Source of the DNA: a virus | Length of the DNA: 64,000 bases | Direction: 5' to 3' (one strand) | Virus record (IMG/VR): IMGVR_UViG_3300035696_000018 | Coordinates: 1 to 64,000 of that record | Shown: positions 105 to 341 of the stretch, piece by piece | Layout of the letters: each line of letters begins with the position of its first letter | How positions within the stretch are numbered: the stretch's first letter is position 1 | Program-made: the position numbers and the translations under genes | Notes under the pieces: generated by a model | What the model was told of the DNA's origin: nothing | What the model saw: only the letters and a program-made list of their open reading frames with translations | The model's database searches: none

Positions 105-174
105 GTTCGCATGATGAAAATCGGATTGGAATCCGGTTGAAAAGAAAAAGCGAAAGCTATTTATCAGTAGTAGT

Positions 175-288
175 ATGAAACGACAATCACAACATTGGTT
201 TAGACTCCCGTCTCTGGGTGCTGTAGCACTCGACGCAAAGAGTGTCTATATCAATGACCGCCCAGAACAGAAAGGCTCTCGGGTGTAA
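175..288 (+). CDS. putative attenuator leader peptide, 37 aa (MKRQSQHWFRLPSLGAVALDAKSVYINDRPEQKGSRV)
   Basis: ATG 175 after TATTTAT motif (158-164); TAA 286-288 lies in the 5' strand of a stem that competes with the terminator; below the ORF-track size cutoff. Confidence 0.65.
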   Translation: MKRQSQHWFRLPSLGAVALDAKSVYINDRPEQKGSRV

Positions 289-318
289 TGTACTAACCCT
301 ACCTTACCCAAAACCGAG

Positions 319-341
319 AGCCGCCGAAAGGCGGCTTTTTT
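319..341 (+). terminator. intrinsic terminator / attenuator hairpin
   Basis: AGCCGCC-GAAA-GGCGGCT then T-run; 5' arm overlaps CCGAGAGCC (314-322), the exact complement of GGCTCTCGG (274-282). Confidence 0.85.

What the first reader, a model, noticed from the sequence alone, without database searches (positions are those of the whole stretch)
158..341. Leader-peptide transcription attenuator gating a giant phage tRNA array
Seen: a 37-codon ORF (175-288) ends in GGC TCT CGG GTG TAA. GGCTCTCGG (274-282) is the exact reverse complement of CCGAGAGCC (314-322), and GTAA/TTAC extends the pairing. 314-322 overlaps the 5' arm of a terminator, AGCCGCC-GAAA-GGCGGCT-TTTTT (319-341), so the two stems are mutually exclusive. 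The first tRNA starts at 504. Established: this is trp/his-type attenuator geometry, where a ribosome reaching the stop masks the antiterminator strand and causes termination, while an upstream stall allows read-through. Inference: the phage transcribes this tRNA/ncRNA array when translation stalls, e.g. after host anticodon nucleases (PrrC-, VapC- or PARIS-type) or starvation deplete tRNA. I do not know of a described attenuator controlling a phage tRNA cluster.
Basis: partly seen in the sequence, partly recalled or inferred. Interest (0 to 1): 0.92.

Follow-up and report, generated by a model that had tools for sequence, protein, structure and literature searches.

The report
Switchable terminator inside phage tRNA array
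A conserved mini-gene, a hairpin and a transcription stop signal overlap inside a giant phage's tRNA gene array so that translating the mini-gene could decide whether RNA polymerase reads on into the next tRNA genes, but it sits inside the array, not at its head, and neither translation nor regulation has been shown.

Summary
Only six strong + strand terminators occur in 107 kb, and this is the only one with a strong upstream competitor (0 of 500 shuffles match it).

Two IMG/VR contigs, L028 and L029, are nearly identical and count as one relative. They carry the same module. The stem that competes with the terminator keeps pairing through three compensatory base-pair changes. The ORF, its start and its TAA inside the hairpin are also kept, and three more peptide homologues exist.

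The framing is wrong, though. In the relative, 11 tRNA genes and a strong promoter lie upstream, so the module is inside the array; the window merely starts at a contig end. The array also has many internal promoters, so at most the next block is gated (tRNA-Lys-UUU, Trp, and in the relative Lys-CUU and Gln).

Translation is not shown. Substitutions have no third-position bias, and the conserved ORF blocks are identical in nucleotides and form an RNA helix. There is no run of sensor codons and no trp-type 1:2 hairpin.

Best reading, about 0.4: a translation-sensitive conditional terminator. Rivals are an ordinary small-gene cassette and a structured non-coding RNA. This scan has made the same kind of claim for other phages, and I found no published account.

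The parts
76..104 (+). sigma70-like promoter: TTGACA, 17 nt, TGgTAACTT (extended -10)
   Evidence: Read. It is conserved in L028/L029 as TTGACA-17-TGgTAAAGT, which the scan lists at 10/12 with TG. The frame that is open through it in the window has a stop in the relative, so this stretch is not coding.
119..138 (+). hairpin in the 5' leader (AAUCGGAU / AUCCGGUU)
   Evidence: Predicted. The arms are kept and the loop differs in L028.
157..164 (+). CTATTTAT motif, a candidate phage (late-type) promoter 10 nt before the ATG
   Evidence: The motif occurs 25 times on the + strand and 5 on the - strand of the genome, usually 4-6 nt before an ATG. It is invariant in L028. In L029 it occurs 10 times on the transcribed strand and 2 on the other.
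175..288 (+). 37-codon ORF with conserved blocks MKRQSQHWFR and AKSVYINDRPE, a variable middle and a variable tail
   Evidence: Seen. Homologues are L028/L029, P0001, P0006 and P0008, aligned. Length differences are in frame and the stop stays at the same structural place. No family matches.
193..256 (+). helix P1 inside the ORF: 193-205 pairs with 244-256 and encloses the variable middle
   Evidence: It is predicted independently in the window and in L028. Both strands are identical in nucleotides between the two, so there is no covariation to count.
274..322 (+). competing (antiterminator-type) hairpin: basal stem 274-282/314-322, inner pairs 285-288/304-307 and 290-292/300-302; the stop codon 286-288 lies inside it
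   Evidence: There are three compensatory pairs against L028. In the X4 relative the changes fall in loops or give U:G. 0 of 500 shuffles in the window and 0 of 300 in the relative give as strong a competitor.
319..341 (+). intrinsic terminator: 7-bp stem 319-325/330-336, GAAA loop, then T run 337-341
   Evidence: The arms are identical in L028/L029 and X4, while the loop differs: GAAA, CAAAAAA and CAAA.
343..503 (+). conserved structured spacer between the terminator and the tRNA, with no recognisable promoter
   Evidence: Aligned. The folds are the same in both genomes, with helices that differ by paired changes. The scan finds no promoter here.
504..580 (+). tRNA-Lys(UUU)-type gene with an unusual T loop (GCAGUAC) and an encoded CCA
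   Evidence: Rfam scores it 32.2 bits. The relative has a canonical tRNA-Lys(ttt) at the homologous position.
617..973 (+). CTATTTAT motif (617-624) and an HNH endonuclease gene (629-973), inserted between tRNA-Lys and tRNA-Trp relative to L028/L029
   Evidence: In L028 tRNA-Trp follows tRNA-Lys after 10 nt.
977..1050 (+). tRNA-Trp(CCA)

Best explanation
This is a conserved transcription unit embedded in the tRNA array of an uncultivated T4-like jumbo phage. In order it has a promoter, a short leader, a 37-codon ORF, a hairpin and an intrinsic terminator.

The hairpin (274-322) forms first and ties up four of the seven bases of the terminator's 5' arm. A transcript whose ORF end is free of ribosomes therefore mostly reads through. 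Read-through enters a conserved structured spacer, then tRNA-Lys(UUU) and tRNA-Trp, and in the relative also tRNA-Lys(CUU) and tRNA-Gln.

The last four codons and the stop of the ORF are the 5' arm of that hairpin. A ribosome that finishes the ORF close behind the polymerase melts the hairpin, lets the terminator form, and ends the transcript at 341. The element would thus be a translation-sensitive conditional terminator: fast translation stops transcription, and absent or slow translation lets it run on.

Shown here are the structures, their predicted competition and their conservation with compensatory changes. Inferred are that the ORF is translated, that translation is coupled to transcription in this host, and what the switch is for. 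It could supply more tRNA when decoding is slow. It could instead let untranslated array precursors pass while stopping the cassette's own translated transcripts.
For: - **Terminator:** it is real and one of only six strong ones in the genome.
- **Competition:** the terminator's probability is 0.15-0.2 without a ribosome, 0.83-1.0 with 268-301 masked, and still about 0.2 with a ribosome stalled upstream at 200-235. 0 of 500 shuffles do as well, and the other terminators of the genome have no such competitor.
- **Relative L028/L029:** it gives the same result, 0.26 free against 0.83 masked, with 0 of 300 shuffles.
- **Covariation:** basal stem pairs 6-8 change on both sides, T:A to A:T, C:G to T:A and G:C to T:A, while the four bases shared with the terminator stay fixed.
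- **X4 relative (about 94% identical):** its changes fall in loops or give U:G, and the stems are untouched.
- **ORF:** the start, the frame and a stop 0-2 codons after the arm are kept in five homologues, with in-frame length changes. The tail changes in amino acids while the RNA pairing is kept.
- **Promoter:** it is conserved upstream.
- **Downstream:** no recognisable promoter lies between the terminator and tRNA-Lys, and the conserved structured spacer must be transcribed. In L029 this is the only strong terminator in about 11 kb of array on that strand, apart from one at the far end.
Against: - There is no direct evidence of translation. Against L028 the ORF has 20 identical, 5 synonymous and 10 non-synonymous codons. 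Differences by codon position are 7/6/9, so no third-position bias is seen.
- The conserved blocks are identical in nucleotides and pair with each other as helix P1. RNA constraints alone could explain them.
- Three of the five homologues were found through protein searches, so their kept frame is biased evidence.
- Only 4 of the 7 bases of the terminator arm are shared. The minimum-energy fold with flanks lets a 7-pair hairpin and a 5-pair terminator coexist. With the U tract free, the terminator wins at 0.75-0.88.
- The leader has no tandem sensor codons. No 1:2 hairpin is present, so the default without ribosomes is read-through, unlike trp or his.
- Other terminators in this array simply follow ordinary genes of 165 and 188 aa. 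One of them is followed within 7 nt by a tRNA, so leaky termination may be general here.
- The DNA comparison rests on only one independent relative.
Confidence: 0.4

Rival explanations
1. This is an ordinary small-gene cassette. A 37-residue protein gene has its own promoters and its own terminator and sits among the tRNA genes, as the HNH genes and other ORFs do. The hairpin would be a 3'-end structure for stability or processing, or would only set a fixed leak. Translation would have no regulatory role.
For: T4-type phages are full of promoter, ORFan and stem-loop cassettes whose stem-loops act as terminators or attenuators (PMC2839356). Other strong terminators in this array follow ordinary genes. 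The TATTTAT motif before the ATG is the one found before many real genes. The peptide blocks are invariant in five homologues.
Against: The hairpin's helix runs unbroken into the terminator arm in both genomes, and it covaries right up to the shared bases. No other terminator of the genome has a competitor. The peptide tail follows the RNA pairing rather than an amino-acid pattern. The substitution pattern shows no sign of protein-level selection. The conserved spacer and tRNA-Lys downstream have no promoter of their own.
Confidence: 0.3
2. This is a structured non-coding RNA and the ORF is not translated. The unit would run from the promoter at 76-104 or the TATTTAT motif to 341, about 170-230 nt. 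It would resemble the stable small RNAs encoded in T4's tRNA cluster. Alternatively the hairpin/terminator choice is set by a protein or RNA factor rather than by ribosomes. The open frame would be a by-product of conserved RNA blocks.
For: The first 30 nt of the ORF and a 21-nt block are identical in nucleotides to a relative that is only 74% identical over the region. These blocks form helix P1, and the variable part with its indels lies at the helix tip. There is no third-position bias. The array is crowded with other structured RNAs. That T4 carries stable small RNAs in its tRNA cluster is my own knowledge and was not checked here.
Against: ATG, frame and stop are kept in all five homologues, and L028 was found with a pattern that allowed any gap length. 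The variable middle keeps a hydrophobic Leu/Ala/Ser/Pro character despite about 50% nucleotide divergence. No Rfam family matches; the best hit near here is 17.7 bits against a threshold of 55.
Confidence: 0.2
3. One reading: a trp/his-type attenuator at the head of the array that turns on the whole giant tRNA array when anticodon nucleases or starvation deplete tRNAs.
For: The evidence for a switch is the same as under the best explanation. The first gene behind it is tRNA-Lys(UUU). That this tRNA species is cut by PrrC is my own knowledge. The invariant leader codons AAA, CAA, UGG and AAG are cognate to the four tRNAs of the next block in the relative.
Against: The module is internal to the array. 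Strong promoters follow at 617, 1771, 9500, 13633, 16077, 20983, 22458, 25702, 27001 and 27871. There are no tandem sensor codons and no 1:2 hairpin. By my rough estimate the codon match is not significant, at about 0.07 for all four codons in a random 37-codon ORF. K, Q and W make up 7 of 36 residues against about 11% expected.
Confidence: 0.07

Closest known systems
Leader-peptide (ribosome-mediated) transcription attenuators of amino-acid operons (trpL, hisL, pheL, thrL, ilv)
   Same: The layout is promoter, short ORF, a hairpin that competes with an intrinsic terminator, then the controlled genes. A ribosome at the end of the ORF covers the competitor's 5' strand and so favours termination.
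   Different: There is no 1:2 anti-antiterminator or pause hairpin that competes with the antiterminator, so an untranslated leader would read through rather than terminate. The leader has no run of codons for a sensed amino acid. The genes behind it are tRNAs, not biosynthetic enzymes. The element sits inside a tRNA array in a phage. Rfam's Phe_leader model scores 17.7 bits against a threshold of 55.
PeSL cassettes of T4-type phages (early promoter plus stem-loop flanking ORFans; PMC2839356)
   Same: It occurs in a T4-like phage and a hyperplastic region. A small orphan ORF has a sigma70-like promoter in front and a stem-loop acting as terminator or attenuator behind.
   Different: PeSL stem-loops lie within or beside the promoter and are repeated motifs that drive recombination. 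Here the promoter and the terminator are separate. The hairpin that overlaps the ORF end and the terminator is specific to this module and covaries. I found no repeat of it in the genome.
Anabaena sp. PCC 7120 long tRNA array (trn operon) induced by translational stress (PMC8421152, PMC10272220)
   Same: It is a supernumerary tRNA array whose expression is tied to the state of translation.
   Different: Control there is by the DNA-binding repressor TrcR at the promoter. The paper mentions no attenuator, leader or terminator.
Leader-peptide attenuators before phage tRNA blocks noted earlier in this scan (e1-5618024, e1-3450868 and others; AI notes, unpublished)
   Same: The arrangement is the same: mini-ORF, switchable terminator, then tRNA genes in large phages.
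   Different: Those notes stress leaders spelled from the amino acids of the tRNAs that follow. Here that match is weak and not significant. The support here is covariation of the competing stem.

Membership tests
Leader-peptide transcription attenuator (trp/his type) | Short ORF on the same transcript, upstream of the controlled genes and behind a promoter | tested here: met
   ORF 175-288 is conserved in five homologues. The promoter at 76-104 is conserved. tRNA-Lys lies at 504.
Leader-peptide transcription attenuator (trp/his type) | Intrinsic terminator between the leader ORF and the controlled genes | tested here: met
   It lies at 319-341, with a 7-bp GC-rich stem and a T run. It is conserved.
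Leader-peptide transcription attenuator (trp/his type) | Antiterminator structure that excludes the terminator | tested here: met
   This is met by prediction only. The terminator's probability is 0.15-0.2 with hairpin 274-322 free. 0 of 500 shuffles match that. There are three compensatory pairs. The overlap is only 4 of 7 bases, and coexistence is possible.
Leader-peptide transcription attenuator (trp/his type) | A terminating ribosome covers the antiterminator's 5' strand | tested here: met
   The stop at 286-288 lies inside the hairpin. Masking 268-301 gives a terminator probability of 0.83-1.0. The result is the same in the relative.
Leader-peptide transcription attenuator (trp/his type) | A 1:2 pause or anti-antiterminator hairpin, so that an untranslated leader terminates | tested here: not met
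   Helix P1 (193-205/244-256) does not pair with 274-282. Without a ribosome the antiterminator is predicted to form.
Leader-peptide transcription attenuator (trp/his type) | Run of regulatory codons for the sensed amino acid | tested here: not met
   There are no tandem repeats of any codon. K, Q and W occur singly.
Leader-peptide transcription attenuator (trp/his type) | The leader is translated and read-through responds to translation | not testable with these tools
   No RNA run holds the sequence. The substitution pattern does not settle whether the ORF is coding.
PeSL / moron-type small-gene cassette of T4-type phages | sigma70-like early promoter and stem-loop terminator flanking a small orphan ORF | tested here: met
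   Promoter at 76-104, ORF with no family, terminator at 319-341.
PeSL / moron-type small-gene cassette of T4-type phages | The promoter/stem-loop unit is a repeated motif shared by many cassettes of the genome | tested here: inconclusive
   No copy of the 100-600 region occurs elsewhere in the genome. Other promoters share only the TTGACA and TATATT boxes (family D16).
T-box riboswitch | Specifier loop and T-box bulge that pair with a tRNA | tested here: not met
   Rfam gives no hit even at E up to 10. The loops of the hairpin vary between relatives.

The most novel reading that the evidence does not exclude
The module is a feedback gauge of decoding capacity for phage-borne tRNAs. The invariant leader codons AAA, CAA, UGG and AAG are read by exactly the tRNAs that lie behind the terminator in the relative: Lys-UUU, Gln-UUG, Trp-CCA and Lys-CUU. 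When any of these runs short, for example after cleavage of tRNA-Lys by an anticodon nuclease, the ribosome lags, the hairpin forms, and the polymerase reads on to make more of them. That would be ribosome-mediated attenuation applied to tRNA genes, which I did not find described in print.
Probability: 0.15. Interest if true: 0.85.

Novelty: new variant of a known kind. Interest (0 to 1): 0.6.

Why it matters
Phage tRNA arrays are now discussed as counter-measures to host defences that cut tRNAs and to codon mismatch, but how their expression is controlled is almost unknown. A terminator inside such an array, opened or closed by translation of a tiny ORF, would tie tRNA supply directly to decoding performance. 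The only documented control of a tRNA array by translational stress that I found uses a repressor protein (Anabaena TrcR). The module is short (about 60-600). It also comes with a natural set of compensatory mutations. It can therefore be tested directly in a coupled transcription-translation system. If instead it is only a small-gene cassette with a leaky terminator, it is ordinary T4-type architecture.

Tried and rejected
- **RNA evidence:** no RNA holder was listed for the sequence. Only DNA contigs of peat, viral and wastewater metagenomes hold it, so nothing can be said about expression.
- **Read laying:** it gave the variant list of a relative about 94% identical (X4) but not its sequence. 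Three substitutions and two indels of that contig were not shown, so its frame cannot be checked.
- **Exact DNA patterns:** patterns from the leader and terminator found nothing in IMG/VR.
- **The one metagenome scan:** I spent it on the terminator sequence. It returned 15 unrelated contigs with the same 25-nt terminator by convergence and no relative.
- The DNA behind P0001, P0006 and P0008 could therefore not be fetched. The 37-aa query was too short for two tools.
- **HNH neighbour as a handle:** it led only to distant, non-syntenic contigs.
- **Isolated phages:** they share only the tRNA parts.
- **Family searches:** PHROGs has no family for the peptide. The weak Rfam hits near 262-344 (Phe_leader, isrK, isrQ, RcsR1; E of 2-6) reflect the terminator shape only.
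- **Spurious protein hits:** the long proteins P0002-P0005 and P0007 match residues 4-32 in several stretches. I take them for repeat or low-complexity matches and did not examine them.
- **Shine-Dalgarno:** its absence before the ATG is not evidence against translation. Only 12 of 46 long genes of this phage have one.
- **Codon mirror idea:** I considered whether leader codons match the downstream tRNAs and found it not significant.
- **Long-range pairing:** a search for pairing between the ORF and the spacer gave only unspecific duplexes.
- **My first impression:** I thought the two stems trade four iso-energetic pairs and so do not compete. The partition-function results corrected this.

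Full report
**Source and setting**

The window is the first 64 kb of a 106.8-kb IMG/VR contig estimated at 30% complete. It was found in peat metagenomes. All long genes lie on the + strand. The first 28 kb hold 34 ARAGORN tRNAs and more by Rfam. Notes on the same genome describe T4-like core genes. Window position 1 is a contig end, so nothing upstream can be seen in this record.

**The observation**

- ORF 175-288 of 37 codons.
- GGCTCTCGG at 274-282, complementary to 314-322.
- GTAA/TTAC as inner pairs.
- Terminator AGCCGCC-GAAA-GGCGGCT-T5 at 319-341, which shares 319-322 with the hairpin.

A scan of the whole genome finds only six strong + strand terminators, so the terminator is not background.

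The element at 504-577 reaches the Rfam tRNA threshold with sensitive filters (32.2 bits). Its anticodon loop reads UUU. It belongs to a local family of tRNA-like genes with a GCAGUAC T loop (family D6).

**Do the two structures compete?**

With flanks included, the minimum-energy fold is a three-way junction in which 7 hairpin pairs and 5 terminator pairs coexist. That fold uses the U tract, which is inside the polymerase when the decision is made. I therefore folded the RNA only up to the end of the terminator stem.

| Condition | Hairpin 274-322 | Full terminator |
|---|---|---|
| No ribosome | 0.77-0.88 | 0.15-0.2 |
| Ribosome footprint at the stop (268-301) masked | absent | 0.83-1.0 |
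| Footprint further upstream (200-235) masked | forms | about 0.2 |

No dinucleotide shuffle of the upstream sequence, out of 500, depresses the terminator as much. The other five terminators of the genome fold at 0.38-0.98. The competitor is therefore a specific property of this site.

**Relatives**

Exact DNA patterns found nothing. The metagenome scan, spent on the terminator sequence, returned only unrelated contigs with a convergent terminator.

Protein searches with the 37-residue translation found three predicted proteins that contain it: P0001, P0006 and P0008. A pattern back-translated from the two conserved peptide blocks, with a free gap, then found two IMG/VR contigs, L028 and L029. 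These are 99.97% identical to each other in this part. They are syntenic with window 54-6100 at 74-92% identity in blocks.

A wastewater run (X4) holds a relative about 94% identical, for which only the list of differences is available.

**What the relatives show**

*The hairpin covaries.* Counted from the terminator side, pairs 1-5 are unchanged. Pairs 6-8 change on both sides: T:A to A:T, C:G to T:A, and G:C to T:A. Pair 9 is lost. The inner GTAA/TTAC and GUA/UAC pairs are kept, and the loops differ in sequence and length.

In X4 the four changes inside the hairpin lie in loops (299, 308, 310) or turn U:A into U:G (306). The terminator changes only in its loop (326).

*The switch is predicted in the relative too.* The terminator stands at 0.26 when free and 0.83 with a ribosome at the stop, with 0 of 300 shuffles as low.

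*The ORF is kept.* The ATG, the blocks MKR(Q/R)SQHWFR and AKSVYIN(D/E)RP(E/D), a hydrophobic middle of 7-10 residues with in-frame length changes, and a stop 0-2 codons after the Gly-Ser or Leu-Ser encoded by the arm are all present. The tail changes in amino acids (KGSRV against GGSLA) exactly where the stem covaries, so there the RNA is what is constrained.

*Promoter elements are kept.* The TTGACA-17-TGgTAACTT promoter at 76-104, a leader hairpin and the CTATTTAT motif are all conserved.

In L029, 11 tRNA genes (Gly x4, Thr, Ile, Met, Thr, Thr, Ile, Cys), a gene of about 215 codons and a 12/12 sigma70-like promoter lie upstream of the module. The module is inside the array. It looked like the head only because the contig starts there.

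The array also carries many internal promoters:
- Near-consensus sigma70-like sites at 9500, 13633, 16077, 20983, 22458, 25702, 27001 and 27871.
- A TATTTAT(A) motif 25 times on the + strand against 5 on the - strand, typically 4-6 nt before an ATG, including at 617 and 1771.

In the window, only tRNA-Lys(UUU) at 504 lies between the terminator and the next such motif. In the relative, which lacks the HNH insertion, the dependent block is Lys-UUU, Trp, about 1.1 kb of other sequence, Lys-CUU and Gln-UUG, before the next motif.

**Is the ORF translated?**

This remains open.

For translation:
- Start, frame and stop are kept. This includes L028, which was found with a gap of any length allowed.
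- The character of the variable middle is kept.
- An A-rich leader precedes the ORF.
- The same motif precedes it that precedes real genes.
- The lack of a Shine-Dalgarno sequence means little, because only 12 of 46 long genes have one.

Against translation:
- Differences from L028 are spread 7/6/9 over the codon positions, with 5 synonymous and 10 non-synonymous codons.
- The conserved blocks have no synonymous change at all in a region that is 74% identical.
- These blocks pair with each other as helix P1, 193-205 with 244-256, in both genomes.
- The three database proteins are biased evidence for a kept frame.

**Mechanism**

The simplest account of a covarying helix that runs unbroken into the terminator's 5' arm, and that contains the last codons and the stop of a conserved ORF, is a conditional terminator set by ribosome occupancy. 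I give this 0.4.

It works like a leader-peptide attenuator but fails two defining features: there is no 1:2 hairpin and there are no sensor codon runs. An untranslated transcript would therefore read through.

Two physiological readings fit, and both are inference. One is a gauge of translation speed that raises supply of the next tRNAs. The other is an insulator that stops the cassette's own translated transcripts while letting untranslated array precursors from upstream promoters pass.

One observation supports bypass of the terminator at a useful rate. The conserved, structured spacer (343-503) and tRNA-Lys have no visible promoter of their own. That argument is weakened because another strong terminator, at 14263-14285, is followed within 7 nt by a tRNA.

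**Rivals**

- An ordinary promoter, ORFan and terminator cassette of the kind described for T4-type phages (PMC2839356): 0.3.
- A structured non-coding RNA with an accidental open frame, or a switch set by some other factor: 0.2.

The match between the invariant leader codons (AAA, CAA, UGG, AAG) and the four tRNAs of the next block in the relative is suggestive. By my rough estimate it is not significant.

**Comparison with what is known**

I found no paper that describes an attenuator for a phage tRNA cluster. The Anabaena tRNA array that responds to translational stress is controlled by the repressor TrcR, and that paper mentions no attenuator, leader or terminator.

This scan has raised the same kind of claim for several other phages. 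Those are unchecked AI notes, and I did not count them as support.

If the best reading holds, this is a new variant of a known kind. If the cassette reading holds, it is ordinary.

Noticed in passing
whole genome; e.g. window 33971, 34879, 37407, 39403, 50713, 58385: A (C/A)TATTTAT(A) motif occurs 25 times on the + strand and 5 on the - strand, usually 4-6 nt before an ATG. Shine-Dalgarno sequences are rare (12 of 46 long genes). This looks like a phage-specific, late-type promoter that gives leaderless or nearly leaderless mRNAs.
   Followed up: partly
window 547-585, 1098-1136, 1345-1383, 1582-1620, 2715-2753, 8449-8487: A family of tRNA-like 3' halves carries a GGGGCAGYACCC T arm in place of GGTTCGAATCC. 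All end in CCA followed by ATTT. One of them gives a weak match to the acceptor piece of alpha-proteobacterial two-piece tmRNA.
   Followed up: no
window 343-503: A conserved structured spacer lies between the terminator and tRNA-Lys. An invariant 35-nt block (about 395-428) is followed by hairpins whose stems differ from L028 by paired changes. No family or function is known for it.
   Followed up: partly
window 581-976: An HNH endonuclease gene with its own TATTTAT motif is inserted between tRNA-Lys and tRNA-Trp. In L028/L029 these two tRNAs are 10 nt apart.
   Followed up: partly
window 503/504: The X4 wastewater relative matches up to 503 and then continues with unlike sequence exactly where the tRNA starts. 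The leader and spacer are therefore shared while the first tRNA differs (loose ends).
   Followed up: no
L019:1854-1878, L025:363-387 and 13 other metagenome loci: The identical 25-nt terminator sequence occurs in unrelated contigs, twice about 20 nt after a tRNA gene ending in CCA. This is convergence on a common terminator, not homology.
   Followed up: yes
window 14263-14365: A strong 9-bp terminator is followed within 7 nt by a tRNA gene (14292-14365). Two tRNA-Gln genes follow, with no recognisable promoter before 16077.
   Followed up: no
window 1198-1267: A tRNA-like element (33.3 bits) has an unpaired acceptor stem and a 6-nt anticodon loop. It is probably a pseudo-tRNA or a different RNA built on tRNA parts.
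   Followed up: no
L029:9560-10250 (minus strand): In the relative, a gene of about 215 codons with a Pro/Lys/Val-rich tail and its own TATTTATA motif lies between tRNA-Cys and the module. It is followed by a 10-bp GC-rich hairpin without a T run, just before the module's promoter.
   Followed up: no
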